A stretch of 64,000 nucleotides of DNA from a virus. Lineage: Duplodnaviria > Heunggongvirae > Uroviricota > Caudoviricetes. The notes beneath the pieces are model-generated. The model did no database searches. It worked only from the letters and a program-made list of their open reading frames with translations, and had not been told where the DNA came from. The stretch is from IMG/VR virus record IMGVR_UViG_3300034091_000309. The stretch is one strand, 5' to 3'. The translations under genes and the position numbers were made by a program. The first letter of the stretch is position 1; every line of letters begins with the position of its first letter. Below are positions 635-12,825 of the stretch, in pieces.

Positions 635-638
635 CCAA

Positions 639-1578: not shown

Positions 1579-1651
1579 GGCGGGATTGGCCGAGGGGTCA
1601 GGCACGGGCCTGTGGCACCCGATACAGGAGTTCGAGACTCCTATCCCGCCC
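1579..1651 (+). tRNA. tRNA-His(GTG)-like (mismatch in anticodon stem, no G-1)
   Basis: Acceptor strands ggcggga/tcccgcc pair, the anticodon loop is ctGTGgc, the T-arm is aggag-ttcgaga-ctcct, and the discriminator is C. Confidence 0.45.
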
Positions 1652-1665
1652 CAAGAAAGGCGTAG

Positions 1666-2094
1666 ATGCACGACATTAAGGAGATCCGCAGAAATCCGGA
1701 AGAGTACAAACGCCGCTTAGCCAGACGAATGGGCGCGGAGGAAGCGGCCGAGATGATGGACGAGATTCTTCGGCTGGATGCGAAGGTTCGCAAACGGGAT
1801 GCGGAGACGCAGGAAGTGCGCACCGAGCAGAATCGCGTCAGCAAAGAAATCGGAGATCTGAAACGCAAGGGCGGCGATACTAGGGAACTGGAAAGGTACG
1901 CTGCGGCTTTGAAAAAGCTATACGTTTTGGCGGAGTACGGGAGACTCGAAGAGTTTCTCTCCGAATGCAAAGCGGAAATCGGCGGAACGGCCAGCATTGC
2001 AAAAAGATGGAAGAGATGGATGTGCCGCTTGGTGGCAAGATGCAAGCGGCTAAAGATCGGGCGCGGATGGGCAGCGCGTGGCTCACCAGCGTGA
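1666..2094 (+). CDS. seryl-tRNA synthetase N-terminal coiled-coil (tRNA-binding arm) fragment; truncated serS-like protein or remnant
   Basis: Residues 1-95 (MHDIKEIRRNPEEYKRRLARRMG...NRVSKEIGDLKRKGGDTRELE...) align to the SerRS N-terminal arm; no class-II catalytic core follows. Confidence 0.5.
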   Translation: MHDIKEIRRNPEEYKRRLARRMGAEEAAEMMDEILRLDAKVRKRDAETQEVRTEQNRVSKEIGDLKRKGGDTRELERYAAALKKLYVLAEYGRLEEFLSECKAEIGGTASIAKRWKRWMCRLVARCKRLKIGRGWAARGSPA

Positions 2095-2412
2095 GGTAAA
2101 CTTGCGCAGAGCGGACAAGGCTTTGGCCGCGCCCGATAGTATGGAGACGAAGATGGACCGAGGAGAACGGCGGTACAGGACGGGAAAGGTGACTGGCAGA
2201 CGGTGGCAACGGGCATTGAAATATGCTGCGTTGCTTCAGTCATTCGGGAGAAGGGGCCCGGCAAGTGTGCAGAAGATGATGCGGCCAGGGCTTTATCGCA
2301 AATGGAATATGACTTGGGACTGCCGTCGTGCTCGGCAATGGTGGGCCCGGCATGAGGGCAGGGAGCAGCAAAGAATTATGGATGCCCGGCATAATGGGTT
2401 GCCGGAAGATGT

Positions 2413-2486
2413 GGGGGCGTAGCTCAGTTTGGGAGAGCGTCTGCTTTGCAAGCAGAGGGTCGCGGGTTCGATGCCTGCCGCCTCCA
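2413..2486 (+). tRNA. tRNA-Ala(TGC)
   Basis: Canonical cloverleaf: acceptor gggggcg/cgcctcc with G3:U70, D-arm gctcagtttgggagagc, anticodon loop ttTGCaa, CCA encoded. Confidence 0.8.
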
Positions 2487-2546
2487 CCACGATAGTGAAC
2501 AGTTATCAGCGGACAGCTTACAATTGAAAGGCTCGATCAACAATTT

Positions 2547-2619
2547 GCCGACTGAGCTAGTGCGGTCATAGCATTGGTCTGAAAAGCCAACCAATCCGGT
2601 CCGACTCCGGAAGTCGGCA
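2547..2619 (+). tRNA. tRNA-Phe(GAA)-like with atypical T-loop
   Basis: Acceptor strands gccgact/agtcggc pair, the D-stem is gcta/tagc, the anticodon loop is ctGAAaa, and the T-stem tccgg/ccgga closes loop tccgact. Confidence 0.4.
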
Positions 2620-2638
2620 CCATCCCCGAGGAGACCGC

Positions 2639-2917
2639 ATGACGCGCTGCAGACAGCCCGTAAAGGATGACGATGTGGAGGTCTTCGTTGTCAACTGCAT
2701 GACGCCGGGCGGCGACGCCACGGTGGGGATTCTCTGCGAGAAGTGCGGCAAGCGGTTTTTCACCCATCCGGAAAACCGCGCTCTGGCCATGGAACGGGAG
2801 ATGAAGGTTCTTTGCCTCTCCTGCGCATTGGAGTTGGCGGCGCGAGAAAAAGAGAAGTTCAGGATCGGGGGCATCGTCCGCAAGGGGAAGATCGTTGATC
2901 GACCACAGCAAGAGTGA
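2639..2917 (+). CDS. small zinc-ribbon protein (CxxC x2), hypothetical
   Basis: RBS gaggag precedes the ATG; the protein carries CEKCG and CLSC motifs. Confidence 0.5.
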   Translation: MTRCRQPVKDDDVEVFVVNCMTPGGDATVGILCEKCGKRFFTHPENRALAMEREMKVLCLSCALELAAREKEKFRIGGIVRKGKIVDRPQQE

Positions 2918-3077
2918 ACGATAGTCGGCAAAGCATCGGAGAGTGGCCACCATATCGGAGAAGCAATGAAGGTCGAGAGACTCAGCAGTACCACCACTAA
3001 GATCATCGAGGAAACAGAGGTTCTGGTTGACGGAAGAAAAGGAAAGTACGTCACAGAATACACAGTGGAGTTCAAAT

Positions 3078-3151
3078 CGGAGAGTGGCCAAGTGGGGAAG
3101 GCCCCGGTTTCGGGAACCGGAAATGCGTGAGTTCGAGCCTCACCTCTCCGA
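3078..3151 (+). tRNA. tRNA-Pro(CGG)
   Basis: Acceptor strands cggagag/ctctccg pair, the D-arm is ggccaagtggggaaggcc, the anticodon loop is ttCGGga, the T-arm is gtgag-ttcgagc-ctcac, and CCA is encoded. Confidence 0.7.
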
Positions 3152-3202
3152 CCAGATTTTTAGTAAGGAGGATGCCATGTCACAGCGGGAAGCGCACAAG
3201 AG

Positions 3203-4096
3203 GTGATCGACGAGATCACCTCTATCATCGAAGACTTCGGCTTAAAGCCAGAGTTCAGAACTAATGTGATTCCACCCGAGGATGATGTCTCGACGTTGTT
3301 CGTCATTGCCGGGATGCAACCGCTGAAACATCGGTTTGCGTCGTCGGATGGTTGCCAGTACGCGAGTTTTCAATCCTGCATACGAACCAATGATCTAAAT
3401 CAAGTCGGCGATGGAATGCACCTGACCAGCTTTACGATGGTCGGTACCTTCGGTTTTGGGAGCCGGAATTATGAAGAGCATTGCGCTCTTTGGGATCGGG
3501 TCGTCAGGCGGTTGGGAATAAGAGTTGATGTTCTCAGATTTCATCCCGACTCAAGCCACCAAGAGATCTGGAATCATCTCGGATACAAAACCGAAGCGGA
3601 CACGAATTGTGTCTGGAGGGCCAGCGAATCGGATGAGGACAGCTACTGCTCGGAGATGTTTGTCGGCGACGTGGAGATCGGGAACCTAGTGAATCCAGGG
3701 CACCATTCGGTCGATGTCGGTTTTGGTTTGGAACGGCTGGTGGCGCTGGTCGAGGGTGTTTCGACGGTGGATGCATCCACGTTGTTCGACCAGCGGTTAC
3801 CGCCAGTAGCGCGGGACCACAAGCGGACGCTGGAGTTGTTGTACGCCAATGGAATACGGCCGGGGAACAAGGGCCGGCAGTACGTCTGTCGCCGATTGCT
3901 GCGCAGACTGATTCGGGAGGCTGGGAATTTTCGGGATTTCAACTTTGCGGAGATGCTGGAGGAGGAGATACGATTTTTCAACCAGCGGCTTTCCATTGCC
4001 CGGCGTGCCTGGAGGAGACAGCAGCACCAGGACGCATCCTTCTGGTGGGAGACTCACGGGATACTGCCGGAGGAGATGGATTTGGTAAAAAACTGA
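3203..4096 (+). CDS. alanyl-tRNA synthetase catalytic-domain homolog (minimal AlaRS-like, 297 aa; no tRNA-recognition, editing or C-Ala domains)
   Basis: Class-II AlaRS motifs are present: TLFVIAGMQPLK, SCIRTNDLNQVGDGMHLTSFTMVGTFGFG, GFGLERLVALVEG, RRLLRRLIREAG. The GTG start overlaps the stop of a 9-codon uORF that has a strong RBS. Confidence 0.6.
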   Translation: MIDEITSIIEDFGLKPEFRTNVIPPEDDVSTLFVIAGMQPLKHRFASSDGCQYASFQSCIRTNDLNQVGDGMHLTSFTMVGTFGFGSRNYEEHCALWDRVVRRLGIRVDVLRFHPDSSHQEIWNHLGYKTEADTNCVWRASESDEDSYCSEMFVGDVEIGNLVNPGHHSVDVGFGLERLVALVEGVSTVDASTLFDQRLPPVARDHKRTLELLYANGIRPGNKGRQYVCRRLLRRLIREAGNFRDFNFAEMLEEEIRFFNQRLSIARRAWRRQQHQDASFWWETHGILPEEMDLVKN

Positions 4097-4118
4097 TCCC
4101 TGACCACTGCTTTTATGA

Positions 4119-4130
4119 TATATTGCGGCC
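4119..4130 (+). promoter_or_regulatory. leaderless-type promoter -10 (TATATT gcggcc ATG)
   Basis: A recurrent motif sits directly upstream of ATG 4131. Confidence 0.45.
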
Positions 4131-4667
4131 ATGATTCGTTTGATTTGTTGGCTGGTCGCCTACGACGAGTGGTTTGCCGGAAGGGTGGAGACATTGCTCA
4201 AGTGGCTGGAGGAGTGGCTCTCTATCAGCCAAAAATACGCAGAGCGAGGGATGATCGCGCTCTATTTGGCATTGATGGAGCTGCAGCCGTCAGTAAAAGG
4301 CACGATCTGGTTGAGAGCCGGGGGTGCGATCTTGATGTCTTATGTCTTGTGGTGGATGCACCGGAGGCCGCTCACCAACCGTGGAACAACAAAGCGTTAT
4401 CCTTTTGCCGCAGTCTCTAGGGTGTTGATCCAGGCATTTCTTTTATTGGTTGCCGCCGACTTTTTTGCTTTCTATTTTTTTGCTTTACCCCATCGCCCTT
4501 CCGTCATCGGCACTGGCACCGCGCAGATCGTCTATCTGGTCTTCATTTACATGACCGACATCGCCTCCAATGGAGATCGCGGGAGACGGCGGAAGCTGGC
4601 CTGGGCGGAGCTGAAGAAACTCTTTGGAACCGAGTGGATACCCAAGCCGCTGCCGGTGCCGCAGTGA
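4131..4667 (+). CDS. integral membrane protein, hypothetical
   Basis: 178 aa containing several hydrophobic segments. Confidence 0.5.
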   Translation: MIRLICWLVAYDEWFAGRVETLLKWLEEWLSISQKYAERGMIALYLALMELQPSVKGTIWLRAGGAILMSYVLWWMHRRPLTNRGTTKRYPFAAVSRVLIQAFLLLVAADFFAFYFFALPHRPSVIGTGTAQIVYLVFIYMTDIASNGDRGRRRKLAWAELKKLFGTEWIPKPLPVPQ

Positions 4668-4708
4668 ACGGTGCGAAAGACAGTGGTCAGTGTGAGTGAA
4701 TTGCGGGC

Positions 4709-4972
4709 ATGAGCAGACAAAAATTTGACGACCAATGCCCAGGATGTCGGCCAGCGATGGTCGACCTTCAAACAGGGAAAGTGCTGCCGGAGCACTCGCC
4801 GCAGATGCAATGTGCACTCGGCGTCTGGGCAGGGACCACACGGGAAGAGCGCGAGGCGTTTCATCGCTTTACCTGTCTAAATTCGAGAACGAAAAGCGAC
4901 ATGCAGACGACGGCGGATTTATCTACCCGCATCCAAAAGGCTCTGGAATTGATGTCGCCGGAGATGTTATGA
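4709..4972 (+). CDS. small zinc-binding hypothetical protein (CPGC motif)
   Basis: Open frame preceded by the leaderless-type motif tgaattgcgggcATG. Confidence 0.45.
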   Translation: MSRQKFDDQCPGCRPAMVDLQTGKVLPEHSPQMQCALGVWAGTTREEREAFHRFTCLNSRTKSDMQTTADLSTRIQKALELMSPEML

Positions 4973-5187
4973 ATGAGCAGACCATGTGCGCTTGCGGAAG
5001 GTCGCTGCACTACAGCGACCCCTTGTTGCAGGAATTTGTGCAGCGGATGGTGGATGAACTGGGGGAGAATATCCGCGTTACCACCAGAGACCGGACGTGG
5101 CTGGTGCCGCGGCACTATCTGGCCCTGCACGGGCTCAAGGCGTGGGAGCTGGAGAAGCTGGGGTTCCCGGAGGCGAAAAATGAATGA
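4969..5187 (+). CDS. small hypothetical protein (73 aa)
   Basis: Its start overlaps the upstream stop in an ATGA arrangement; the sequence MNEQTMCACGRSLHYSDPLLQEF... looks protein-like. Confidence 0.45.
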   Translation: MNEQTMCACGRSLHYSDPLLQEFVQRMVDELGENIRVTTRDRTWLVPRHYLALHGLKAWELEKLGFPEAKNE

Positions 5188-5461
5188 CAAAGAGCGCTAC
5201 CTTGATGCCGCGCACGGGATGCAGAGCGGTGTGGCCTATGTCATGGAGACTGAGCCAGAGCCCAAAGAGACCAGCCTCAAGCATCTGCGCGTCGGCGTCA
5301 ACTCCGCGATGTGCAACCAAGCCGCCCTGGTACGTCTGCTGATCGCCAAAGGACTGTTTACGCCGGAAGAGTACGAGAAAGAGATTGCCGACGAGATGGA
5401 GCGGGAAAGAGACCGATACGCACTGCGAATCGACCCCAGTGGCCGGGTGAGTTTGCACTGA
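5180..5461 (+). CDS. small hypothetical protein (93 aa)
   Basis: An ATGAATGA overlap suggests translational coupling; MNDKERYLDAAHGMQSGVAYVME... is protein-like. Confidence 0.45.
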   Translation: MNDKERYLDAAHGMQSGVAYVMETEPEPKETSLKHLRVGVNSAMCNQAALVRLLIAKGLFTPEEYEKEIADEMERERDRYALRIDPSGRVSLH

Positions 5462-5793
5462 TGGATACCGATTGTTACGTTTCTGAAAACGCTTTTGGTC
5501 GTTGGGTCATCGTGAACGCTGCGAACCGGGACTTGGCGTGGAGCGGCTCCCGTTGGGTGGCGCACAGGAATGGACTTCCGGCCGGCGGAGTGCAGGTTTC
5601 GAACTTTGAGAGAGCCGTAGAGGCATACGAAAACGCTGTTCAGGCCGGCCTAAAGCCTCTTACCTACAGCATTGCGGCCAAAGGCGAGAACATTACCTGC
5701 TTCAAGTGCGGCATGACAAGCTGGAACGAGAACGATGTGCGGGAGAGATACTGCGGGAACTGCCACGAGTTTCACCATCTTGGCCGGAACTGA
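5461..5793 (+). CDS. small hypothetical protein with C-terminal zinc ribbon (CFKCG...CGNCHEF)
   Basis: A TGATG overlap joins it to the upstream gene. Confidence 0.45.
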   Translation: MDTDCYVSENAFGRWVIVNAANRDLAWSGSRWVAHRNGLPAGGVQVSNFERAVEAYENAVQAGLKPLTYSIAAKGENITCFKCGMTSWNENDVRERYCGNCHEFHHLGRN

Positions 5794-5814
5794 TCGGCGC
5801 GCCAAAGGTGGTTT

Positions 5815-6012
5815 ATGGTTGAATTCAGGATCACCGAGCACCGCGTCCTCCCTGCGCAGATCGTTGAGATTTGGGTGGACGGGGTTTTTCGCGGCGCTAT
5901 GTACCCGCAAGAACCGGACGGTATACGTTTGATGAGCAGGTATATTGCTGCTGGACCGGAAAAAGAGCAAAGCGCACCAGACTCCTGGCGCTTTACGTTC
6001 AAAAAACCATGA
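5815..6012 (+). CDS. small hypothetical protein (65 aa)
   Basis: RBS aaaggtgg precedes the ATG. Confidence 0.4.
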   Translation: MVEFRITEHRVLPAQIVEIWVDGVFRGAMYPQEPDGIRLMSRYIAAGPEKEQSAPDSWRFTFKKP

Positions 6013-6017
6013 ATCAC

Positions 6018-6091
6018 GGGGGTATAGCTCAGTTGGAAAGAGCGGCTGACTACGAATCAGCGGGCCGGGAGTTCGAGTCTCTCTACCCCCA
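6018..6091 (+). tRNA. tRNA-Arg(ACG)
   Basis: Acceptor strands gggggta/taccccc pair, the D-arm is gctcagttggaaagagc, the anticodon stem gctga/tcagc closes loop ctACGaa, and CCA is encoded. Confidence 0.75.
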
Positions 6092-6115
6092 CCAGATCAG
6101 TGAAAGGCAACCGGT

Positions 6116-6424
6116 GTGGAGACAACTTCCGATGGTGAGCTGAAGTTTGAAAAGATCAAAGTGCTGGGCATGGAGCTGGAGCAGTGCAGGTACCGCTCCT
6201 GTACCGCAGAGTTTGGCGTCGGGGAGGATTGGGCAACCTTGGCTTTGATCGAATCGACGGAGCCGGGCAAAGGGCACGCCACGGCCCTACTGAAAGCGGC
6301 CAAGGAGCACTATGAGGCCCAAGGCAAACGCTTTGGCGGCTCGGTGGCCTTGAATGAGCGGATGCGGGCGATTTACCGGCGCCTCGGCATCCGGGAATAC
6401 TCCACGGACGAGGATGGTCTCTAA
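6116..6424 (+). CDS. small GNAT-like acetyltransferase-fold protein (putative)
   Basis: GTG start after RBS gaaagg; the C-terminal region is ATLALIESTEPGKGHATALLKAAKEHYEAQGKRFG. Confidence 0.4.
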   Translation: METTSDGELKFEKIKVLGMELEQCRYRSCTAEFGVGEDWATLALIESTEPGKGHATALLKAAKEHYEAQGKRFGGSVALNERMRAIYRRLGIREYSTDEDGL

Positions 6425-6429
6425 ATTAT

Positions 6430-6460
6430 TTGTGCGCCCGTTTCAAAAAGGGTGTATATT
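6430..6460 (+). promoter_or_regulatory. sigma70-like promoter (TTGTGC-N19-TATATT) carrying the conserved box CCGTTTCAAAAAGGGTGTATATTGC; drives the Y-RNA-like array
   Basis: The same box recurs at 12782-12808 and 52547-52569. The predicted TSS coincides with the 5-prime stem of unit A. Confidence 0.55.
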
Positions 6461-6466
6461 GCTTTT

Positions 6467-6547
6467 TGTCGCTGGTGAAAGAACGCGGGTACTTCGCCTT
6501 GAACACGAATCCCGAAAGGGAACCCGAGTTCGCCTGTTCCGCGACAA
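6467..6547 (+). ncRNA. Y-RNA-like ncRNA unit A (long terminal stem with bulge, candidate Ro60-binding helix)
   Basis: The 5-prime sequence tgtcgctggtgaaagaacgcgg pairs with the 3-prime sequence cgcctgttccgcgaca, leaving a conserved bulge tggtgaaa; the unit lies directly upstream of the Ro60 gene. Confidence 0.5.
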
Positions 6548-6600
6548 AATGCCAGGGCTTCCGCAAAGGGGTTCACGTTTGTGGGATGGTAAAGGAATCT

Positions 6601-6680
6601 TCCCGGTAGTGAAGAGAACGGTTACTTCTTCCTTCAAAGAAGCCCGCAAGGGCACAACCGTTTTCGCTTGTTCTCCGGGA
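6601..6680 (+). ncRNA. Y-RNA-like ncRNA unit B
   Basis: The 5-prime sequence tcccggtagtgaagagaacgg pairs with the 3-prime sequence cgcttgttctccggga, with conserved bulge TAGTGAA and internal ttacttc. Confidence 0.5.
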
Positions 6681-6687
6681 TAAAGGT

Positions 6688-6774
6688 TCTCCGGTAGTGA
6701 AAGACAGCGGTTACTTCTTACTGCAAATGAGAGCGCCCCGCAAGGGGCTAACCGAGGTCGCCTGTTCTCCGGGG
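6688..6774 (+). ncRNA. Y-RNA-like ncRNA unit C
   Basis: The 5-prime sequence ctccggtagtgaaagacagcgg pairs with the 3-prime sequence cgcctgttctccgggg. Confidence 0.5.
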
Positions 6775-6827
6775 ATAATTCGGGGCTCCGGCGGCGGGTC
6801 TATGCCGCTGGGGTGAAGGATAAAATC

Positions 6828-6894
6828 TGAGCCGTAGTGAAGGCGGCGCTTACTTCTTTGGAAAGTAAAAGCGCGGCCAAATTGTTCTCGGCTC
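6828..6894 (+). ncRNA. Y-RNA-like ncRNA unit D
   Basis: The 5-prime sequence gagccgtagtgaaggcggcgc pairs with the 3-prime sequence gcgcggcc...ttgttctcggctc. Confidence 0.45.
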
Positions 6895-6902
6895 TCTAAG
6901 TT

Positions 6903-7034
6903 CGGGCTGGTGTAGTTCCGGTTACTTCGCCTCGTAAGCGGGAGGCCGCGGGTTCGAGTCCCGCCATCGTAGCAATACGATGTAGCTCAGTTGGTTAGAG
7001 CGCCTACGTTACCGAAACGCCTGTTCCGCCCGAT
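6903..7034 (+). ncRNA. YrlA-like Y RNA with tRNA-like module (T-arm, loop-closed acceptor-like hairpin, D-arm)
   Basis: The T-arm gccgcgggttcgagtcccgcc is followed by hairpin atcgta-gcaa-tacgat and then D-arm gtagctcagttggttagagc; the terminal stem is cgggctgg.../cgcctgttccgcccg. Confidence 0.55.
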
Positions 7035-7041
7035 CAAACGA

Positions 7042-7068
7042 GAGCCCGGCCGAGGCCGGGCTCTTTTA
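7042..7068 (+). terminator. rho-independent terminator after the Y-RNA array
   Basis: The hairpin gcccggccgaggccgggc is followed by tctttt. Confidence 0.6.
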
Positions 7069-7080
7069 TTGGAGGTAAGT

Positions 7081-8526
7081 ATGCGGACCAATGTAGCAGT
7101 GAAGACGCCGGCGCCCCGGACGCATGAGGGCGCTGTGGCAGCGAGAATCAACCCGGTCGAGCAGTTGCGCCGTTCGGTGATGGCCAACATGCTTTGGGAG
7201 GACGAGTTCTACGAGGAGGGCCAGTCGATCGCCAAGCGCATCCAGGAGACGGTGGCCGAGATTCTCAAGCAGAAGAACGGTCCCCAGACCGTCGCCGACA
7301 TCGCCTACGAGGCGCGCACCCAGATGAAGCTGCGTCATGTGCCGCTGCTGCTGGTGGCGGCGCTGATCCATGCCAATACCAAGGAAATCCGCGCCCTGGT
7401 GGCCGGCACCATCGCCCGCGTCATCCAGCGGCCGGACGAGATGGGTGAGCTGATCTCGCTTTATTGGAATGCAAACAAGCAGAACGACGGTTCTTCAGTA
7501 ATCCAGTCGCGCAAGATGCTGCCCAGTCAGGTGAAGAAGGGCTTGGGAGAGGCCTTCCGCAAGTTCGATGCCTATGCGCTGGGCAAGTACAACTCCGACG
7601 CTGCGGCGGTGAAGCTGCGCGATGTGCTGTTTCTGGCTCATGTGAAGCCCTTGACCGAGGAGCAGGTTGTGCTGTGGAAGAAGCTGACGGAGAAGACTCT
7701 GGAGTCCCCGGACACCTGGGAGGTGGCGCTGAGCGGCGGCGCGGACAAGAAGGAGACCTTCACGCGCCTGTTGAACGAGGAGAAGCTGGGGGCGCTGGCC
7801 CTGCTGCGCAACCTGCGCAACATGCAGCAGGCAGGCGTGGACGAGAGCCTGATCCGCGAGGGGCTGGGCAAGATGAAGACGGAGCGGGTGCTGCCCTTCC
7901 GCTTTATCTCGGCGGCCAAGTATGCTCCACAGTTGGAACCCCAACTTGAAGAGACTATGTTTCGGTGCCTTGCGGCTCAGGAGAAGTTGAGCGGTAAGTC
8001 GATTCTCATTGTTGACTGCTCTGGTTCGATGCACGGACCGATCTCTGGGAAGTCGGAATTGGATCGTCTCAGCGCGGCAGCAGCTTTGGCAATGCTCTTG
8101 CGTGAAGTATGCGAAGAGGTAGCCGTGTACGCTACTGCCGGGGACGACTTGCGCCGAACTCATGCCACGATTCTGATTCCCCCACGGCGCGGATTCGGTC
8201 TGCGGGATTTGCTCTCTTATGAACGCACATCCGGCAAGATCGGCGGTGGCGGAATCTTTTTGAAGGAGGTGATCGAGTATGTTCGCAAGGAAGAGAAGGG
8301 CAAGGCCGACAGGATCATTGTCATTACTGATGAGCAGGACTGTGATTTGGTGAACAAGCCTGCCAGCGCAAAGCCGTTCGGAAAGAACAACTATCTCATC
8401 AACGTCGCCAGCTTCAAAAACGGCATCGGCTATGGGGACTGGGTTCACATCGACGGATGGTCTGAGGCAATCGTGGACTACATCGAGCGCTTCGAGCAGC
8501 TTGACACGGCTGGGGAAGCGGCGTAA
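7081..8526 (+). CDS. rsr: Ro60/Rsr-like ribonucleoprotein (TROVE domain plus C-terminal vWA domain with MIDAS DxSxS)
   Basis: RBS ggagg lies 5 nt upstream; the MIDAS motif reads IVDCSGSMHG; the domain order TROVE+vWA matches Ro60; a Y-RNA-like array lies immediately upstream. Confidence 0.55.
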   Translation: MRTNVAVKTPAPRTHEGAVAARINPVEQLRRSVMANMLWEDEFYEEGQSIAKRIQETVAEILKQKNGPQTVADIAYEARTQMKLRHVPLLLVAALIHANTKEIRALVAGTIARVIQRPDEMGELISLYWNANKQNDGSSVIQSRKMLPSQVKKGLGEAFRKFDAYALGKYNSDAAAVKLRDVLFLAHVKPLTEEQVVLWKKLTEKTLESPDTWEVALSGGADKKETFTRLLNEEKLGALALLRNLRNMQQAGVDESLIREGLGKMKTERVLPFRFISAAKYAPQLEPQLEETMFRCLAAQEKLSGKSILIVDCSGSMHGPISGKSELDRLSAAAALAMLLREVCEEVAVYATAGDDLRRTHATILIPPRRGFGLRDLLSYERTSGKIGGGGIFLKEVIEYVRKEEKGKADRIIVITDEQDCDLVNKPASAKPFGKNNYLINVASFKNGIGYGDWVHIDGWSEAIVDYIERFEQLDTAGEAA

Positions 8527-8646
8527 GGTGGTATTGAGTGGAGAATTCCATGCAGTCCAGATCCCTGAAACACGGCATAATCATTCGCGTCAAGCGGATG
8601 TGGGGGGTCGTGTTTTAGGGGTCTGGAGTTGCAGGTGTACGCCCAG

Positions 8647-8676
8647 ACCCCCGGCTCAGGCCGGGGTTTTTCATGC
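8647..8676 (+). terminator. rho-independent terminator after the Ro60 gene
   Basis: The hairpin ccccggctcaggccgggg is followed by ttttt. Confidence 0.6.
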
Positions 8677-8697
8677 TCTTTGACAATGCGGGCGTAA

Positions 8698-8770
8698 GCT
8701 AACTGCGCAAACTGTCGGTCTCCAAAGCCGAACTTGGGGGTTCGAATCCCTCCGCCCGTGCCAAAAATAT
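8698..8770 (+). tRNA. tRNA-Trp(CCA)-like (irregular D-arm)
   Basis: Acceptor strands gcgggcg/cgcccgt pair, the anticodon stem tcggt/gccga closes loop ctCCAaa, the T-arm is ggggg-ttcgaat-ccctc, and CCA is encoded. Confidence 0.4.
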
Positions 8771-8812
8771 CGCCGGGTTATCGTCAGGTATCGTCAGATT
8801 TTGTTCCGCAGT

Positions 8813-8888
8813 GGCGCCGTAGCTCAGCCCGGTTCAGAGCGGTCGGCTCATAATCGACGGGTCGGAGGTTCAAATCCTTCCGGCGCCA
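8813..8888 (+). tRNA. tRNA-Met(CAT) (elongator Met or Ile-lysidine type)
   Basis: Acceptor strands ggcgccg/cggcgcc pair, the anticodon loop is ctCATaa, the T-arm is ggagg-ttcaaat-ccttc, and CCA is encoded. Confidence 0.7.
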
Positions 8889-8892
8889 CCAT

Positions 8893-8931
8893 GCCACCCC
8901 ACGGACTTGGACTTGTTCGCAGGGAACCCGG
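8893..8931 (+). repeat. RPE-like palindromic element copy (degenerate)
   Basis: The sequence reads gccaccccacggacttggacttgttcgcagggaacccgg. Confidence 0.6.
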
Positions 8932-8941
8932 AAGAGATTGT

Positions 8942-9014
8942 GCGCGCGTAGCTCAACTGGCAGAGCATTCGGCTCTTAACCGACAGGTTGGGGGTTCAAT
9001 TCCCTCCGCGCGCA
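8942..9014 (+). tRNA. tRNA-Lys(CTT)
   Basis: Acceptor strands gcgcgcg/cgcgcgc pair, the D-arm is gctcaactggcagagc, the anticodon loop is ctCTTaa, and there is a 27:43 mismatch. Confidence 0.65.
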
Positions 9015-9052
9015 CCAAACGTCAAGCAGCGATCAGAGGCCAGCAAAACATC

Positions 9053-9123
9053 GGACTCGTAGCTCAAGGGCAGAGCATCTGGCTTTTAACCAGTCGGCGA
9101 GGGTTCGATCCCCTCCGGGTCCA
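9053..9123 (+). tRNA. tRNA-Lys(TTT)
   Basis: Acceptor strands ggactcg/cgggtcc pair with one GU, the anticodon loop is ctTTTaa, the T-arm is gaggg-ttcgatc-ccctc, and CCA is encoded. Confidence 0.65.
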
Positions 9124-9128
9124 CCAGT

Positions 9129-9166
9129 CCACCCCAGCGACGAAGACCTGTCGCCGGGAACCCCGG
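9129..9166 (+). repeat. RPE-like palindromic element copy
   Basis: The sequence reads ccaccccagcgacgaagacctgtcgccgggaaccccgg. Confidence 0.8.
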
Positions 9167-9169
9167 TAC

Positions 9170-9243
9170 GCTGCCGTAGCTCAGGCGGAGAGAGCGGGCG
9201 TTTTCTAAACGCAAGGTCGCGGGTTCGAGTCCTGCCGGCAGCG
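9170..9243 (+). tRNA. tRNA-Arg(TCT)
   Basis: Acceptor strands gctgccg/cggcagc pair, the anticodon loop is ttTCTaa, the T-arm is gcggg-ttcgagt-cctgc, and CCA is encoded. Confidence 0.65.
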
Positions 9244-9270
9244 CCAGATTTCTGCTAGTATCGGGTGCGG

Positions 9271-9343
9271 GGCCCCGTGGCCAAGTGGAGAAGGCACCGG
9301 TTTCCTAAACCGAAGACCGTGAGTTCGAATCTCACCGGGGCTA
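9271..9343 (+). tRNA. tRNA-Arg(CCT)
   Basis: Acceptor strands ggccccg/cggggct pair, the anticodon loop is ttCCTaa, the T-arm is gtgag-ttcgaat-ctcac, and CCA is encoded. Confidence 0.6.
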
Positions 9344-9351
9344 CCATCTTC

Positions 9352-9425
9352 GCGCGTGTAGCTCAGGTGGACAGAGCGCAAACCTCCGGAGTTTGAGGCC
9401 GGCAGTTCGAATCTGCCCACGCGCA
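9352..9425 (+). tRNA. tRNA-Arg(CCG)
   Basis: Acceptor strands gcgcgtg/cacgcgc pair, the anticodon stem caaac/gtttg closes loop ctCCGga, the T-arm is ggcag-ttcgaat-ctgcc, and CCA is encoded. Confidence 0.7.
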
Positions 9426-9464
9426 CCATCTCCCAATGGTCAGTGAACAGTGGTCAGTCACGCG

Positions 9465-9538
9465 GGGTTAGCTCAGTTGGCCAGAGCGCTTCCCTTACAA
9501 GAAAGAGGCCGGGGGTTCGATTCCCTCACCCCGCACCA
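9465..9538 (+). tRNA. tRNA-Val(TAC) (one mismatch in anticodon stem)
   Basis: Acceptor strands gcggggt/accccgc pair, the D-arm is gctcagttggccagagc, the anticodon loop is ctTACaa, and CCA is encoded. Confidence 0.5.
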
Positions 9539-9559
9539 GATTTTTGTTACAGTGCAGCC

Positions 9560-10129
9560 ATGAACGCAGAAGATTTGATACAGATCCCGGCGTTGCCCAG
9601 GGTGTGGAGCGATGAGGCGACCCCGCCGCGGCGCGAAGCGCTGTGGATCAAAGAGGGCAAGAAATGCCACTGGTGCGGTCGGCCGACGCGGCTCACGGTG
9701 GAATCGGCGCCCGATCAGGCAACCACCGAGCACATCATTCCCCGCTACAAGGGAGGTAGCAACGAGCCGGAGAATCTGGTCTCGGCCTGCCGGGAGTGCA
9801 ACGGCCGGCGCAACAGCGAAGACATGAAGGGGCTTCCCGAAGGCGCCCTGAAGCCAGGCGGCAAAGGAAAATCCAAGGTCAAGCGCATTGCCCTGAGTGG
9901 GGATGAGAAGCGGACCATTCTGGCCAGGATTGCCGCCGCGCCGGCGCACTACGAGCCGATCGACGTGGTGCGGGAGCAGCGGGAGCAGGCGCTGAAAACG
10001 GTGATGGAGTTGCGCACGGAGTTGAAGCAGTGGAAGGCGACTGTGGCGGAGCAGGAACGGAAGCTGAAGACCATGACGGTGTGGCAGGTAATCCGGCGGG
10101 ATTTGGTGGAGTTGTTGAAAGAGCAATAA
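9560..10129 (+). CDS. HNH endonuclease (embedded in tRNA cluster)
   Basis: The HNH motif reads CHWCGRPT...TTEHIIPRYKGGSNEPENLVSACRECNGRRN. Confidence 0.7.
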   Translation: MNAEDLIQIPALPRVWSDEATPPRREALWIKEGKKCHWCGRPTRLTVESAPDQATTEHIIPRYKGGSNEPENLVSACRECNGRRNSEDMKGLPEGALKPGGKGKSKVKRIALSGDEKRTILARIAAAPAHYEPIDVVREQREQALKTVMELRTELKQWKATVAEQERKLKTMTVWQVIRRDLVELLKEQ

Positions 10130-10130
10130 C

Positions 10131-10204
10131 GGGCGCGTAGCTCAATTGGCAAGAGCGTTCGCTTGATAAGCGAAAGGTTGGAAGTTCAATCCTTCCCACG
10201 CCCA
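10131..10204 (+). tRNA. tRNA-Ile(GAT)
   Basis: Acceptor strands gggcgcg/cacgccc pair with one C-A mismatch, the anticodon stem ttcgc/gcgaa closes loop ttGATaa, the T-arm is ggaag-ttcaatc-cttcc, and CCA is encoded. Confidence 0.65.
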
Positions 10205-10234
10205 CCAGATGTAAAATGGCCTCAAGGTGAAGCC

Positions 10235-10495
10235 GTGAGCATCTTCTACTTTGAGATCGACAATGATCTATGGCGTCACGCATTTCTTGCGGAAGCCGAG
10301 AATTTCGTTGGAGCCACGATGCAGGCGACGGACTTCATGCGGAAGCTGGACGAGGCGGCTTACGAGGAAATTGGCGAATTAGATTCCAAGATTACGGTGT
10401 TGAGCGACACAGATGCGATGTGGGCGAATGATGCGGCATTAAAGGAATGCCTGGAGATGCTCAAGGAACAGCATCGTTGTGAAGAAGAAGATTGA
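10235..10495 (+). CDS. small hypothetical protein
   Basis: GTG start after RBS aaggtgaag; the 5-prime limit is uncertain because the longer ORF overlaps tRNA-Ile. Confidence 0.3.
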   Translation: MSIFYFEIDNDLWRHAFLAEAENFVGATMQATDFMRKLDEAAYEEIGELDSKITVLSDTDAMWANDAALKECLEMLKEQHRCEEED

Positions 10496-10517
10496 GCGGG
10501 CGTGGCAAGGATTTGTG

Positions 10518-10530
10518 TATAATTGCGGTC
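10518..10530 (+). promoter_or_regulatory. leaderless-type promoter -10 (tgtgTATAAT tgcggtc ATG)
   Basis: Recurrent motif immediately upstream of ATG 10531. Confidence 0.45.
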
Positions 10531-10806
10531 ATGAACACGCATCAGGAGATGTTGGATTCAATTCCAGAACCCTACCGGTCGGCGCACCAGGAGTGCAAGC
10601 GGAATCGGGAGAAGGTGCTGGCGGGCAAGCGCGCCGGGTGTTTTTATTGCTTGGCGATCTTCGATCCTCAGACCATCAGGGAATGGCTTGACGGTGAGCA
10701 GACGGCTCGGTGTCCTATTTGCGGAGTTGATTCTGTTTTGCCGGATTCGCCGACTCTCACGGACGAGTTCCTCAAGCAGATGCACGAAGAGTGGTTTGAA
10801 AAATGA
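10531..10806 (+). CDS. small zinc-finger protein (CFYC...CPIC), hypothetical
   Basis: The ATG lies 7 nt after TATAAT; the protein begins MNTHQEMLDSIPEPY. Confidence 0.5.
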   Translation: MNTHQEMLDSIPEPYRSAHQECKRNREKVLAGKRAGCFYCLAIFDPQTIREWLDGEQTARCPICGVDSVLPDSPTLTDEFLKQMHEEWFEK

Positions 10807-10877
10807 GCGGGCGTGGTACAGCGGCAGTGCCCTGGCCCTCCAAGCCATAGACGCGGGTTCAACCCCCGCCGCCCGCT
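10807..10877 (+). tRNA. tRNA-Gly(TCC)
   Basis: Acceptor strands gcgggcg/cgcccgc pair, the D-stem gtac/gtgc matches that of tRNA-Gly(GCC), the anticodon loop is ccTCCaa, the T-arm is gcggg-ttcaacc-cccgc, and CCA is encoded. Confidence 0.55.
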
Positions 10878-11004
10878 CCAACTACTTTTCCCAGAGAAAA
10901 TCCATCTCCCGTTCGAACCACCGGCCGTCTTCAAGTAGAAGGCGGCGAAGGTATGTGCGCAAAACGGCGCTGTGAACATTTTCAATGAAGATTCCGTCGT
11001 AAGG

Positions 11005-11217
11005 CTACAGGTGTTGGCAGAGGTCCAAAAAACGCTTGAATATCCCCTGCCGTTGGAAGTTCGGCTTGACTTCGATGCTGGCAATGTCAAAGTAGGAACG
11101 AAGTTCACCATTCATACCAAGATGATGACCTTTGCGCACATATACAGACATCTCTCGCGATTCCAGCCAAGCATTGCTGCGTTCCGATTTGAGAAAATCC
11201 TTCAGTTTCTTTTCCAT
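11005..11217 (-). CDS. small hypothetical protein (70 aa)
   Basis: ATG with RBS aggacgg on the minus strand; MEKKLKDFLKSERSNAWLESREMSVYVRKGHHLG is protein-like. Confidence 0.35.
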   Translation of the reverse strand: MEKKLKDFLKSERSNAWLESREMSVYVRKGHHLGMNGELRSYFDIASIEVKPNFQRQGIFKRFLDLCQHL

Positions 11218-11488
11218 CCCGGCCGTCCTCTGCTATAGTAATCCCGCAGGGCGCGCCCCGGTCGTGCCGGGGTGACAAATCGGGAGGGGAAGCACTTGGG
11301 GAGAGCCGCTCTTATCCTTTCTGGCGGTATTCCCCGAAGCAGAGCGGTAACCTCGCAAAACCTTAGTCCGTGGACAGATCCATCCTGGTATAACGGTGAG
11401 CGTACATGATACTTGTGCGGACAGGATGGTCAGGGCCTGTCAACCCCAGCCGGTAGCCAATCCGGCCCCCTGCAACCGAGGAAACGGC

Positions 11489-11653
11489 GATGAATAAAGG
11501 ACGAAAGGCAAAGTATTTCAGACTGTGTGCCAAGAGGCTGCAGGAGGACCGTGAGCGCACCGCCGAGAACCGGCGCAAGCTGCTGGCTACGCTGAAGCCG
11601 GAAGTCAGAGCGCTGGCCATCAGCGAGTTCGCCAAGCTGGGGCTGACGCAGTG
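11489..11653 (+). CDS. small basic hypothetical protein (54 aa)
   Basis: RBS gaggaaacggcg precedes the ATG, and the end overlaps the next gene start in a GTGA arrangement. Confidence 0.3.
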
Positions 11654-12139
11654 AAAAAAGCCGGCGCCATTCCGGCGGTTGTCTCGAAGCGGAACGAGTT
11701 CAGTCCGGCGGACGAGCTGGTCGAGAACCATCTGCCGTACCTGCCCGAGCAGTTCAAGCATCCGGATTTCCGCAAATGGTTGACCCGCTACACGGAGGCG
11801 GTCATCAAGCGGGTAGCGCATCATTTCGCTGTGGCGGCGGAACGAGGGATCGAACAGGCTGCCAACCTGCTCTGCGATCCGGAGTTCTACGAGACGCGGC
11901 GGCAGAGGCGGGCCGAATGGCGTAGAAAGATGCGGGAGAACGAAGCGCAAGCGGAATGGGAGCGGCTGGAGCGGCTGAATTGTCCTACGGCGGAACAGAT
12001 CGCGGAGCAGATCAAATGGTCGGAGCGGCAAGTTGAATATCACCGGGTTGAACTGACTAAGCACGAGGAGAATCTAAAACGGCTGCGCGCGATGACGCCC
12101 AAAAACATTCGGCTGGTGCCCCCGAAAAGCGTCCAGTAA
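11651..12139 (+). CDS. hypothetical protein (162 aa)
   Basis: Protein-like open frame on the plus strand; the longer opposing-strand ORF looks like an artefact. Confidence 0.5.
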   Translation: MKKAGAIPAVVSKRNEFSPADELVENHLPYLPEQFKHPDFRKWLTRYTEAVIKRVAHHFAVAAERGIEQAANLLCDPEFYETRRQRRAEWRRKMRENEAQAEWERLERLNCPTAEQIAEQIKWSERQVEYHRVELTKHEENLKRLRAMTPKNIRLVPPKSVQ

Positions 12140-12206
12140 ATGAAGACTGTCCAGAATCTGGATTGTTGCGCCAAAGGCGCGTATGCTTGGGCGGCAAGCC
12201 CTGTGG

Positions 12207-12218
12207 TATATTGCGGGC
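12207..12218 (+). promoter_or_regulatory. leaderless-type promoter -10 (TATATT gcgggc ATG)
   Basis: Recurrent motif immediately upstream of ATG 12219. Confidence 0.45.
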
Positions 12219-12773
12219 ATGGATTGGAACGAGGAATGCCGCAGGGTGCACCGGGAAGGGCTGGAGGCGCGGGCCAAGATGCCCTACGAAAACGCTGGCC
12301 TCCCCTTCCGGCTGCGGCCGTATGATGAAACGGGAGAACATCCGGATAAGGACTTGGTTTTTCAACAGGGCGTCGACGATGCGCGCCGGGCGCTGTTGCG
12401 GATATTGGTTGTGCCGGTTTTTCGCAAGGTGGGGACGCCGGCGGTGCTGGTCCAGGCCGATGCCCGGATAGGGAAGATGCCAGAGATCGCTGGGCACTTC
12501 GGATGGCCGGCCGATTTGGGGTTTGAGGAGTACGAAAAGCGGTATAGCCGGATTCTGAAAGAGCAGTACGATGGCACCATCGCCAACATGCCGCCGCATC
12601 TGTGGGTGGATGCGATCTTTACCACCATCAAGGGTCCGAAGATCATTCCGTTCATCATCAGCACACCCTACCACGCCGGTGAGCATGGCGAGGTGGTTTA
12701 CGAAGAGGCGATGGAGACCTCCGGGGTTGTATCGCCCCTCCTGCCCGACTGGTGGGAGAGTCCGGTGAACTAA
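12219..12773 (+). CDS. hypothetical protein (184 aa)
   Basis: The frame starts MDWNEECRRVHREGLEARAK and the ATG lies 6 nt after TATATT. Confidence 0.5.
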   Translation: MDWNEECRRVHREGLEARAKMPYENAGLPFRLRPYDETGEHPDKDLVFQQGVDDARRALLRILVVPVFRKVGTPAVLVQADARIGKMPEIAGHFGWPADLGFEEYEKRYSRILKEQYDGTIANMPPHLWVDAIFTTIKGPKIIPFIISTPYHAGEHGEVVYEEAMETSGVVSPLLPDWWESPVN

Positions 12774-12781
12774 ATTTGCGT

Positions 12782-12808
12782 CCGTTACGAAAAGGGTGTA
12801 GAGTGGTT
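12782..12808 (+). promoter_or_regulatory. conserved promoter box (ccgttacgaaaagggtgtagagtgg)
   Basis: Variant of the CCGTTTCAAAAAGGGTGTATATTGC box, upstream of the 12826 gene. Confidence 0.4.
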
Positions 12809-12825
12809 CTTCTGGGAGGAAGACG

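What the first reader, a model, noticed from the sequence alone, without database searches (positions are those of the whole stretch)
6430..8676. Ro60/Rsr (TROVE+vWA) gene preceded by a promoter-driven tandem array of five Y-RNA-like ncRNAs, the last with a YrlA-type tRNA-like module
A conserved promoter (TTGTGC-N19-TATATT) places transcription start at the first of five consecutive 70-130 nt units, all upstream of a 482-aa TROVE-plus-vWA protein with a MIDAS DCSGSM motif. Each unit can fold into a long terminal helix: the 5-prime half ccgg-TAGTGAA-agaNcgg pairs with the 3-prime half cgCCtgTTCtccgg, a conserved bulge TAGTGAA interrupts the stem, and an internal ttacttc word is conserved. This is the architecture of Ro60-binding Y RNAs. 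The last unit adds a T-arm (gccgcgggttcgagtcccgcc), an acceptor-like hairpin closed by a loop (atcgta-gcaa-tacgat) and a D-arm (gtagctcagttggttagagc), which is the tRNA-like domain described for bacterial YrlA. The array ends in a clean terminator and sits inside a 14-kb tRNA island. Multiple tandem Y-RNA paralogs next to rsr in a phage-like element would be an unusual, compact Ro RNP module.
Basis: partly seen in the sequence, partly recalled or inferred. Interest (0 to 1): 0.85.

Follow-up and report, generated by a model that had tools for sequence, protein, structure and literature searches.

The report
Phage Ro60 gene with five Y RNAs
A roughly 134-kb integrase-encoding (probably temperate) phage carries a Ro60 (Rsr) RNA-binding protein gene preceded by five tandem Y-RNA-like genes, four short and one tRNA-like; this is a larger, previously unannotated version of a known system, and related phages have similar arrays.

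Summary
Window 6467-7033 (+) contains five consecutive units of 66-132 nt with one shared core: a 6-bp terminal stem, a bulged U, an RG:CY pair step, a conserved internal loop (GGUGAA/AGUGAA/GGUGUA facing YUGUU), a 7-8 bp inner stem, and the word UACUUC. Units 1-4 then carry one or two small hairpins. Unit 5 carries a permuted tRNA-like module (V arm, 5-bp T arm, 7-bp closed acceptor stem, 4-bp D arm).

A covariance model built only from other loci finds exactly these units in the 64-kb window: four at 48-68 bits, and the fifth at 23 bits once speed filters are off. Unit 5 matches Rfam YrlA at 41 bits, below the gathering score of 69.

The 481-aa ORF is a full-length Ro60. It passes the Pfam TROVE cut-off, has a DxSxS MIDAS motif, and its predicted structure matches only Ro60 structures among the top 13 PDB hits.

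The helix covaries strongly in units picked by sequence words alone from 86 related loci. However, arrays are normal for this clade (median 3 per locus; at least 8 in Caulobacter phage CcrColossus). Ro60 with upstream Y RNAs is already known in bacteria and phages. The "conserved promoter" is not verified.

Verdict: a real feature with the interpretation supported, and a new variant of a known kind.

The parts
6430..6460 (+). Promoter-like words TTGTGC-N19-TATATT. A start site 6-8 nt after the -10 word would fall at the first base of unit 1.
   Evidence: Read directly from the sequence. Not called by the sigma-70 scan and not repeated in the window. Better -35/-10 pairs sit in the same position before the first unit in L002 and L003. 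Inferred, weak.
6467..6546 (+). Y-RNA-like unit 1 (short class, 80 nt). Terminal stem UGUCGC/GCGACA, GGUGAA loop, inner stem, UACUUC, and two small hairpins, the second with a GAAA loop.
   Evidence: R1 model 50.8 bits, E 3.6e-13. The MFE fold gives the consensus architecture.
6547..6600 (+). Spacer between units 1 and 2, with a modest hairpin.
   Evidence: MFE -17 kcal/mol, z -2.0. Function unknown.
6601..6680 (+). Y-RNA-like unit 2 (short class, 80 nt). UCCCGG/CCGGGA stem, AGUGAA loop, and two hairpins, the second with a GCAA loop.
   Evidence: R1 68.3 bits, E 1.4e-18. MFE z -3.5.
6689..6774 (+). Y-RNA-like unit 3 (short class, 86 nt). It is 78% identical to unit 2, and its inner stem has a 2x2 mismatch.
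   Evidence: R1 48.5 bits, E 1.8e-12. Fold, identities.
6775..6828 (+). Spacer between units 3 and 4, with a strong GC-rich hairpin.
   Evidence: MFE -26.1 kcal/mol, z -4.8. Absent from the closest relative L002, where units are 7-9 nt apart.
6829..6894 (+). Y-RNA-like unit 4 (short class, 66 nt, one internal hairpin). It belongs to an orthologous series conserved in related phages.
   Evidence: R1 50.6 bits, E 4e-13. It is 83% identical to L001 unit 2 but at most 61% identical to the other window units.
6902..7033 (+). Unit 5, a YrlA-type Y RNA (132 nt). It has the same core as units 1-4 (GGUGUA loop) plus a V hairpin at 6929-6946, a T arm at 6948-6964, a closed 7-bp acceptor-like stem at 6965-6982 and a D arm at 6985-7001.
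   Evidence: Rfam YrlA RF02553 41.2 bits, E 1.2e-7, below the gathering score of 69. R1 core 23.1 bits with a 74-nt insertion. Alignment with 33 relatives: 95.3% of cells paired, and all 7 acceptor-stem pairs covary. ARAGORN miscalls 6919-7015 as tRNA-Ser.
7041..7069 (+). Intrinsic-terminator-like hairpin (11-bp perfect stem, 2-nt loop) and T-run. It lies between the array and the rsr ribosome-binding site (GGAGG at 7071-7075).
   Evidence: Inverted repeat I1/I2. A hairpin plus U-run is kept, with different stem sequences, in L001-L004, L093, L094 and L097. Partial read-through is inferred.
7081..8526 (+). Ro60/Rsr orthologue, 481 aa: a TROVE HEAT-repeat ring plus a vWA domain with a MIDAS DxSxS motif.
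   Evidence: Pfam TROVE 47.9 bits against a cut-off of 23. PDB phiLo Ro60 E 6.8e-29 over residues 12-472. AF2 pLDDT 80.4. The top 13 Foldseek PDB hits are all Ro60, with TM up to 0.70.
8551..8633 (+). Long near-perfect hairpin in the rsr 3' region.
   Evidence: Fold of 8527-8687: -78.5 kcal/mol, z -6.6. No Rfam family matches. Role unknown.
8649..8676 (+). Intrinsic terminator that ends the rsr transcription unit, just before tRNA-Trp at 8688.
   Evidence: Terminator scan: 7 GC pairs plus TTTTT.

Best explanation
This is a phage-encoded Ro60-Y RNA ribonucleoprotein module, arranged as a single transcription unit.

Transcription probably starts at or just before 6467 and runs through five Y RNA genes. 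Most transcripts stop at the hairpin at 7041-7067. The fraction that reads through carries the rsr mRNA, so the RNAs are made in excess over the protein.

The precursor is cut into five small RNAs. Each presents the same closing helix with a conserved internal loop (RGYGWA(G) on the 5' strand, YUGUUCY on the 3' strand). This is the counterpart of the GNCGAAN0-1G / GGUCCGA site through which Ro60 binds Y RNAs.

The variable interiors act as different effector or gating modules: small tetraloop hairpins with A-rich single strands in units 1-4, and a full tRNA elbow-and-acceptor mimic in unit 5. One Ro60 ring could therefore be loaded with alternative adaptors, for example to recruit host PNPase or other tRNA-recognising enzymes. 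The module sits in the phage tRNA island, which suggests a role in RNA or tRNA surveillance or counter-defence during infection.

Shown here: the protein family and fold, the RNA architecture and its covariation, the strict same-strand linkage to TROVE genes, and the conservation of individual paralogues.

Inferred: Ro60 binding, processing, terminator read-through, the identity of effectors, and the biological role.
For: Protein:
- TROVE is above the Pfam cut-off and the MIDAS residues are invariant.
- Full-length sequence match to the solved Thermus phage Ro60.
- The predicted structure matches only Ro60 structures among the top 13 PDB hits.

RNA:
- Model R1, built from 64 units of other loci, hits only 6467-6894 (four units) in the whole window. 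With filters off it also hits unit 5, with the tRNA-like part as an insertion.
- The single-sequence fold of each unit reproduces the architecture.
- A non-circular test used 165 units picked by sequence words alone from 86 loci. The terminal stem pairs at 5.26 of 6 positions, against 3.05 +/- 0.08 for permuted partners. GG:CC occurs 140 times and AG:CU 19 times, against 6 discordant. The inner stem scores 5.41 against 4.44 +/- 0.05.
- For the YrlA-like class, 95.3% of cells pair against 65.6% in shuffles and 37-48% in slid controls. The 7-bp acceptor-like stem covaries at all seven pairs.
- Unit 5 aligns over the full length of Rfam YrlA.

Linkage:
- All 233 R1 hits in 86 viral loci are on the strand of the TROVE gene.
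- Units 4 and 5 are closer to their counterparts in other phages than to paralogues in the same array, so the paralogues are kept separately.

Junction: the terminator hairpin is conserved with different stem sequences in 8 related loci.

Precedent:
- M. smegmatis YrlA and YrlB lie upstream of rsr and are processed from one precursor (PMC4201824).
- Thermus phage phiLo Ro60 binds two upstream Yrl RNAs and forms a complex with host PNPase (PMC12135203).
Against: - There is no expression, processing or binding data for this phage.
- No unit carries the exact GNCGAAN0-1G motif. They have GGUGAAAG, AGUGAAG, AGUGAAAG, AGUGAAG and GGUGUAG.
- Unit 5 scores 41 bits against the Rfam YrlA gathering score of 69.
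- The promoter match is weak.
- The hairpin at 7041-7064 may terminate efficiently, which would leave rsr without an obvious promoter.
- Training sets A2 and A3 were picked by a script that required terminal and inner stem pairing. Covariation figures for those two helices are therefore partly circular. and the T and acceptor helices are not affected.
Confidence: 0.8

Rival explanations
1. The units are not separate small RNAs. They form a structured 5' leader of the rsr mRNA that binds Rsr in cis and autoregulates its synthesis, for example by controlling the hairpin at 7041-7064.
For: The array, hairpin, ribosome-binding site and rsr are contiguous on one strand. There is no room for a separate rsr promoter.
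Against: In several related loci the units lie downstream of the TROVE gene (L104, L107, L110, L130, L152), where they cannot be a leader. Upstream Y RNAs in M. smegmatis are processed into stable RNAs (PMC4201824). This rival is not exclusive of the main explanation.
Confidence: 0.1
2. The units act independently of Ro60, as tRNA-mimic decoys or sponges for host tRNA-targeting nucleases or other defence proteins. That would explain their position in the tRNA island.
For: The array sits inside a 21-tRNA island. At least 10 of 20 related viral loci have co-oriented tRNAs within 2.5 kb. A phage Ro60-like protein counters the Ppl defence system in Bas63 (PMC11482910).
Against: Only one of the five units has a tRNA-like part. 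The most conserved part is the Ro60-site-like helix, not the tRNA-like module. Units co-occur with a TROVE gene in all but one case examined.
Confidence: 0.07
3. The units are decayed tRNA genes or repeat debris in a tRNA island, with no function of their own.
For: ARAGORN calls part of unit 5 a tRNA. Homologous stretches are annotated as tRNA in some phage records.
Against: Units 1-4 have no tRNA parts. The core is conserved with compensatory changes across loci whose proteins are only 47-80% identical. Hits are strand-specific. Individual paralogues are conserved between phages.
Confidence: 0.02

Closest known systems
YrlA (Rfam RF02553; Chen et al. 2014, PMC4201824)
   Same: Unit 5 is encoded beside rsr on the same strand. 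Its ends form a helix carrying the putative Rsr site. It has YUAY (UUAC) at the start of the V region, then a T arm, a closed acceptor-like stem-loop and a D arm with tRNA invariant bases. It aligns over the full length of the Rfam model.
   Different: It scores 41.2 bits against a gathering score of 69. The 5' motif is GGUGUAG rather than GNCGAAN0-1G. The acceptor-like stem is 7 bp, as in M. smegmatis YrlA but unlike Salmonella YrlA. None of the homologous phage units tested reaches the gathering score.
YrlB / Yrn2-type short Y RNAs (S. Typhimurium, M. smegmatis, D. radiodurans; PMC4201824)
   Same: Units 1-4 are second Y RNAs without a full tRNA-like domain. They share the putative Rsr site and lie beside rsr. 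As with M. smegmatis YrlB, they sit upstream of rsr in a common precursor arrangement.
   Different: YrlB could not be traced beyond Salmonella by sequence (PMC4201824). The short units here form a family recognisable by one covariance model in 84 of 86 viral loci, and script-detected units also occur beside many Acidobacteriota genome copies of the gene. They have a fixed UACUUC word and occur in up to 4 copies per array here.
Thermus phage phiLo Ro60 with Yrl1 and Yrl2 (PMC12135203; PDB 9KOP, 9L5Y)
   Same: It is the closest solved protein (E 6.8e-29, TM about 0.7). It is a phage Ro60 with Y-like RNAs directly upstream, and it was shown to bind them and to assemble with host PNPase.
   Different: It has two RNAs, found through a CGAA motif, with no tRNA-like module reported. 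Here there are five RNAs with a U-for-C variant motif, one of them tRNA-like, inside a tRNA island.
Caulobacter phage CcrColossus gp139 TROVE locus (JX100810)
   Same: The protein is from the same family. At least 8 co-oriented units with the same core lie upstream of the gene. The phage is listed among those with Y-like RNAs (PMC12135203, citing Chen 2014).
   Different: Its motif is GGCGUAG, and most of its units carry T arms or full tRNA-like modules. One unit is annotated as tRNA-Gln in the record.

Membership tests
Ro60 / Rsr protein | TROVE (HEAT-repeat ring) domain | tested here: met
   Pfam PF05731 47.9 bits against a cut-off of 23. Full-length phmmer match to phiLo Ro60, E 6.8e-29.
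Ro60 / Rsr protein | C-terminal vWA domain with a MIDAS motif (DxSxS...T...D) | tested here: met
   DCSGSM at residues 312-317. D312, S314, S316 and D417 are invariant, and T416 nearly invariant, in 16 homologues. The Pfam vWA models score below their cut-offs (23.5 against 27, and 16.3 against 27.7), but the fold match covers the whole chain.
Ro60 / Rsr protein | Overall ring fold matching solved Ro60 structures | tested here: met
   AF2 model pLDDT 80.4, pTM 0.75. The top 13 Foldseek PDB hits are all Ro60 (9KOP, 9L5Y, 1YVP, 2I91, 9NEN, 2NVO), with TM 0.59-0.70.
Y RNA (general) | 5' and 3' ends pair into a helix interrupted by a conserved loop or bulge that forms the Ro60 site | tested here: met
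   All five units show it. Covariation in a word-selected set: 5.26 of 6 against 3.05 for permuted partners, and RG:CY concordant in 159 of 165 units.
Y RNA (general) | Physically bound and stabilised by Ro60 | not testable with these tools
   This needs RNA immunoprecipitation, gel-shift assays, or an rsr deletion.
YrlA | Encoded within 4 kb of rsr on the same strand | tested here: met
   Unit 5 ends 48 nt before the rsr start codon, on the same strand.
YrlA | GNCGAAN0-1G motif near the 5' end | tested here: not met
   Unit 5 has GGUGUAG. Units 1-4 have GGUGAAAG or AGUGAA(A)G. The exact GGCGAAG form occurs in relatives: CGAA in 25 of 165 units, CGUA in 40, UGAA in 61 and UGUA in 25. The site is a variant (G-G-Y-G-W-A), not absent.
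YrlA | Permuted tRNA-like domain (YUAY/V region, T arm, closed acceptor-like stem-loop, D arm with tRNA invariant bases) | tested here: met
   cmscan alignment, MFE fold, and consensus with covariation in the T, acceptor and D helices.
YrlA | Rfam RF02553 gathering score (69 bits) | tested here: not met
   41.2 bits, E 1.2e-7 in a 721-nt search. There is no hit at gathering threshold.
YrlA | tRNA-type modifications (TruB, DusA), and RNase P cleavage or CCA addition | not testable with these tools
   The 7-bp acceptor-like stem, the determinant named for M. smegmatis YrlA (PMC4201824), is present.

The most novel reading that the evidence does not exclude
The short units may define a widespread Y RNA subfamily that no family in Rfam release 15 matches here. 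It has a fixed RGYGWA / UACUUC / YUGUUCY core and is detectable by one covariance model in phages and in Acidobacteriota genomes. Phage arrays of 2-8 separately conserved paralogues would then form a modular adaptor library. Each paralogue would load the same Ro60 ring with a different effector- or substrate-recruiting module. The array is embedded in and co-expressed with the phage tRNA island, serving tRNA or RNA surveillance or counter-defence.
Probability: 0.3. Interest if true: 0.65.

Novelty: new variant of a known kind. Interest (0 to 1): 0.5.

Why it matters
Ro60-Y RNA particles are conserved from bacteria to humans. What the variable Y RNA modules do is still largely open, and so is why phages carry the system.

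This locus and its relatives give a natural series of paralogues. They share one presumed Ro60-binding core and differ only in the module: no extra domain, a T arm only, or a full tRNA mimic. That makes module function directly testable by pulldowns and swaps.

There are practical points too:
- The curated Rfam model misses all of these RNAs at its threshold.
- tRNA finders and some GenBank records label the tRNA-like units as tRNAs, so phage tRNA counts are inflated.
- The covariance model built here gives a way to annotate them.

Tried and rejected
- Rfam at gathering threshold found only tRNAs, with no Y RNA or YrlA. The sub-threshold YrlA hit came only from an E-value search.
- The promoter word was searched across the window with up to 2 mismatches. 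The three other matches are unconvincing, and the sigma-70 scan found nothing in 6000-9000. The 'conserved promoter' claim was therefore dropped.
- A first sequence-only unit picker mis-registered both anchors and gave weak numbers. It was replaced by stricter word anchors.
- My pairing-based unit finder has a background of about 40-90 false calls per 241 kb, against 402 calls upstream of the gene. It was used only to collect training sequences. Detection claims rest on the covariance model.
- A whole-IMG/VR scan for TGGTGAAG-N6-9-TTACTTC returned mostly chance matches, as expected for 15 fixed bases. Only 12 of 120 stretches carry a TROVE gene and real units. One stretch, L294, has an R1 hit without a detectable TROVE gene, and I left it unexplained.
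- The supplementary tables of Chen et al. 2014 and the 2020 Annual Review are not held. I could not check how many units per phage were already listed.
- tRNA debris and repeat-element readings were considered and rejected (see rival explanations).
Full report
**What is there**

Window 6430-8676 lies inside a run of 21 co-oriented tRNA genes (562-13952, + strand). The element carries RecT, an exonuclease, an integrase, DNA methyltransferases and a DnaB-like helicase. The same sequence was assembled twice as contigs of 134,250 and 134,264 bp. It is therefore most likely a temperate phage of about 134 kb. The nearest cellular homologues of the protein are in Acidobacteriota MAGs.

**The protein**

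ORF 7081-8526 (481 aa, with GGAGG 6 nt upstream) passes the Pfam TROVE cut-off at 47.9 against 23 bits. It has weaker vWA matches. It carries DCSGSM, and D312, S314 and S316 are invariant in 16 homologues.

It aligns over residues 12-472 with the solved Ro60 of Thermus phage phiLo, at E 6.8e-29. An AlphaFold2 model (pLDDT 80.4, pTM 0.75) matches only Ro60 structures among its 13 best PDB hits. These are phiLo, X. laevis, human and D. radiodurans Ro60, with TM 0.59-0.70. The protein is a Ro60/Rsr orthologue. More than 8000 relatives exist in the protein collection.

**The RNAs**

Five units lie at 6467-6546, 6601-6680, 6689-6774, 6829-6894 and 6902-7033. Each has, in order:
- a 6-bp terminal stem;
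- one bulged U;
- two pairs, RG with CY;
- an asymmetric internal loop, with YGWA(G) on the 5' side and (C)GYYUGUU on the 3' side;
- a 7-8 bp inner stem;
- the word (K)UACUUC;
- a variable interior.

Single-sequence folding of every unit returns this architecture. Units 1-3 add two hairpins. The first is formed by CUUC with a downstream GAAG-like word. The second is GC-rich with a GAAA or GCAA loop. Unit 4 has one hairpin.

Unit 5 adds:
- a V hairpin;
- the variable-loop-like AGGCC;
- a 5-bp T stem with a UUCGAGU loop (6948-6964);
- a 7-bp stem closed by GCAA (6965-6982);
- UA followed by a 4-bp D stem with an AGUUGGUUA loop (6985-7001).

This is a circularly permuted tRNA elbow and acceptor, with tRNA-like spacing.

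**Is it more than chance?**

I collected related loci: 9 plus 80 viral contigs, 80 genome contigs and two GenBank phages. I built a covariance model, R1, from 64 short units taken only from those loci.

In the full 64-kb window, on both strands, R1 gives exactly four hits. They are units 1-4, at 48.5-68.3 bits and E 1e-12 to 1e-18. With speed filters off, unit 5 is also found at 23.1 bits (E 5e-6), with its 74-nt tRNA-like part treated as an insertion in the loop.

Rfam's YrlA model aligns to unit 5 over its full length, at 41.2 bits and E 1.2e-7. That is below the gathering score of 69. Nothing in the array reaches any Rfam gathering score.

**Covariation**

My training sets were picked by a script that required stem pairing. 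I therefore made a separate test with units chosen by sequence words alone, which gave 165 non-redundant units from 86 loci.
- The six terminal pairs are formed at 5.26 of 6 positions, against 3.05 +/- 0.08 when 5' and 3' halves are permuted between units. There are 119 different 5' hexamers.
- The RG and CY steps are concordant (GG:CC 140, AG:CU 19) in all but 6 units.
- The inner stem scores 5.41 against 4.44 +/- 0.05.

RNAalifold on the short class finds 16 pairs, 15 of them with compensatory changes.

For the tRNA-like class (unit 5 plus 33 relatives), 31 pairs were predicted and 27 have compensatory changes. Of the paired cells, 95.3% form standard pairs, against 65.6% in shuffles and 37-48% when partners are slid. 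The covariation score is 0.777 against 0.192. The T stem and the 7-bp acceptor-like stem were not used in selection, and they covary at 4 of 5 and 7 of 7 pairs.

**Linkage to the gene**

R1 finds 233 hits at E <= 1e-3 in 86 viral loci, all on the strand of the TROVE gene. 84 of 86 loci have at least one hit. The median is 3, and 18 loci have four or more. In some loci the array follows the gene instead of preceding it.

CcrColossus has at least 8 units upstream of gp139, and Xanthomonas phage Tenjo has about 5.

A collection-wide scan for a 15-base word pair was dominated by chance matches. Among the 120 stretches, the 12 with real units all carry a TROVE gene, at a median distance of 162 nt. 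One R1 hit (L294) lacks a detectable TROVE gene.

**Paralogues are old**

Unit 4 is 83% identical to a unit in L001 but at most 61% identical to the other window units. Unit 5 is 79% identical to a unit in L004 but at most 50% identical to the other window units. Units 1-3 form a subfamily (67-78% identity), and unit 3 looks like a local duplicate of unit 2. Separate conservation of positions in the array argues for distinct functions.

**Transcription unit**

The words TTGTGC-N19-TATATT at 6430-6460 would place a start site at the first base of unit 1. Clearer -35/-10 pairs sit in the same place in L002 and L003. The window's match is weak, however. The scan does not call it and it is not repeated elsewhere.

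A perfect 11-bp hairpin with a U-run lies at 7041-7067, directly before the rsr ribosome-binding site. The same arrangement, with different stem sequences, is present in eight loci whose proteins are 59-80% identical, and is absent in more distant ones. There is no room for another promoter, so rsr is probably translated from read-through transcripts. That would give excess RNA over protein. This step is inferred.

**Comparison with what is known**

Chen et al. 2014 (PMC4201824) reported the following:
- YrlA-like RNAs beside rsr in 254 bacteria and 22 phages, sometimes several per locus;
- the GNCGAAN0-1G motif as the likely Rsr site;
- YUAY at the start of the V region;
- T, acceptor-like and D stem-loops;
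- second, shorter Y RNAs (YrlB, Yrn2);
- in M. smegmatis, two Y RNAs upstream of rsr processed from one precursor, with RNase P cleavage linked to a 7-bp acceptor-like stem.

Thermus phage phiLo Ro60 binds two upstream Yrl RNAs and assembles with host PNPase (PMC12135203). A Ro60-like protein of phage Bas63, next to tRNA genes, counters the Ppl defence system (PMC11482910). TROVE proteins of jumbo phages were discussed as RNA-repair platforms (PMC7824862).

The present locus fits this kind. It differs in four ways:
- The Rsr-site motif has U for C, and in unit 5 also U for A. The canonical GGCGAAG occurs in relatives.
- All tRNA-like units of this clade fall below the Rfam gathering score.
- The short units form a recognisable, widely distributed family that no Rfam family matches here.
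- Arrays reach 5-8 units.

I found no description of such arrays in the papers I could read, but the supplementary tables of the 2014 paper were not available.

**Context**

In at least 10 of 20 related viral loci, co-oriented tRNA genes lie within 2.5 kb. One locus also has a tmRNA. L002, the closest relative, is flanked by tRNAs on both sides. Placement of the rsr-Y array inside phage tRNA clusters is therefore common.

**Verdict**

The exceptions are the promoter and the claim that such arrays are unusual. It is a new variant of a known system. It is useful mainly as a natural series of Y RNA modules and as an annotation gap.

Noticed in passing
window 8551-8633 (+): A long, near-perfect hairpin (about 26 bp, with a 7-bp hairpin inside its loop) lies just after the rsr stop codon and before the terminator at 8649-8666. 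The fold of 8527-8687 is -78.5 kcal/mol, z -6.6, and no Rfam family matches.
   Followed up: partly
window 6775-6828 and 6547-6600 (+): Two 54-nt spacers inside the array each form a hairpin. The first is strong (-26.1 kcal/mol, z -4.8). The closest relative, L002, has only 7-9 nt between units. They may be processing sites or remnants of lost units.
   Followed up: partly
window 3203-4096 (+): A 297-aa ORF inside the tRNA island matches only the N-terminal catalytic part of class II alanyl-tRNA synthetase (Pfam tRNA-synt_2c, 90.5 bits, best stretch residues 20-156).
   Followed up: no
window 6919-7015; L011 2129-2196; H10: tRNA finders and GenBank records label tRNA-like Y RNA units as tRNAs. 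ARAGORN calls tRNA-Ser(cga) here. CcrColossus has an annotated 'tRNA-Gln' over a Y unit. Xanthomonas phage 10KY502B has a 'tRNA-Thr' under the homologous stretch. Phage tRNA counts are inflated by this.
   Followed up: partly
L294 10736-10819 (-): A single unit matches model R1 (44.8 bits) in a 30% GC viral contig. No TROVE homologue is detectable in the 14.6 kb held, and the neighbouring ORFs have no TROVE hit. It may be an orphan Y-like RNA or may have a very divergent partner.
   Followed up: partly
L111 1199-1592 (+): A phage-encoded tmRNA (113 bits) lies in the same co-oriented cluster as tRNAs, Y-like units and the TROVE gene.
   Followed up: no
window 9443-10129 (+): An HNH endonuclease ORF sits between tRNA genes in the island. 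The longest ORF overlaps tRNA-Val (9462-9538), so the real start is probably near 9560, as in the public gene call.
   Followed up: no
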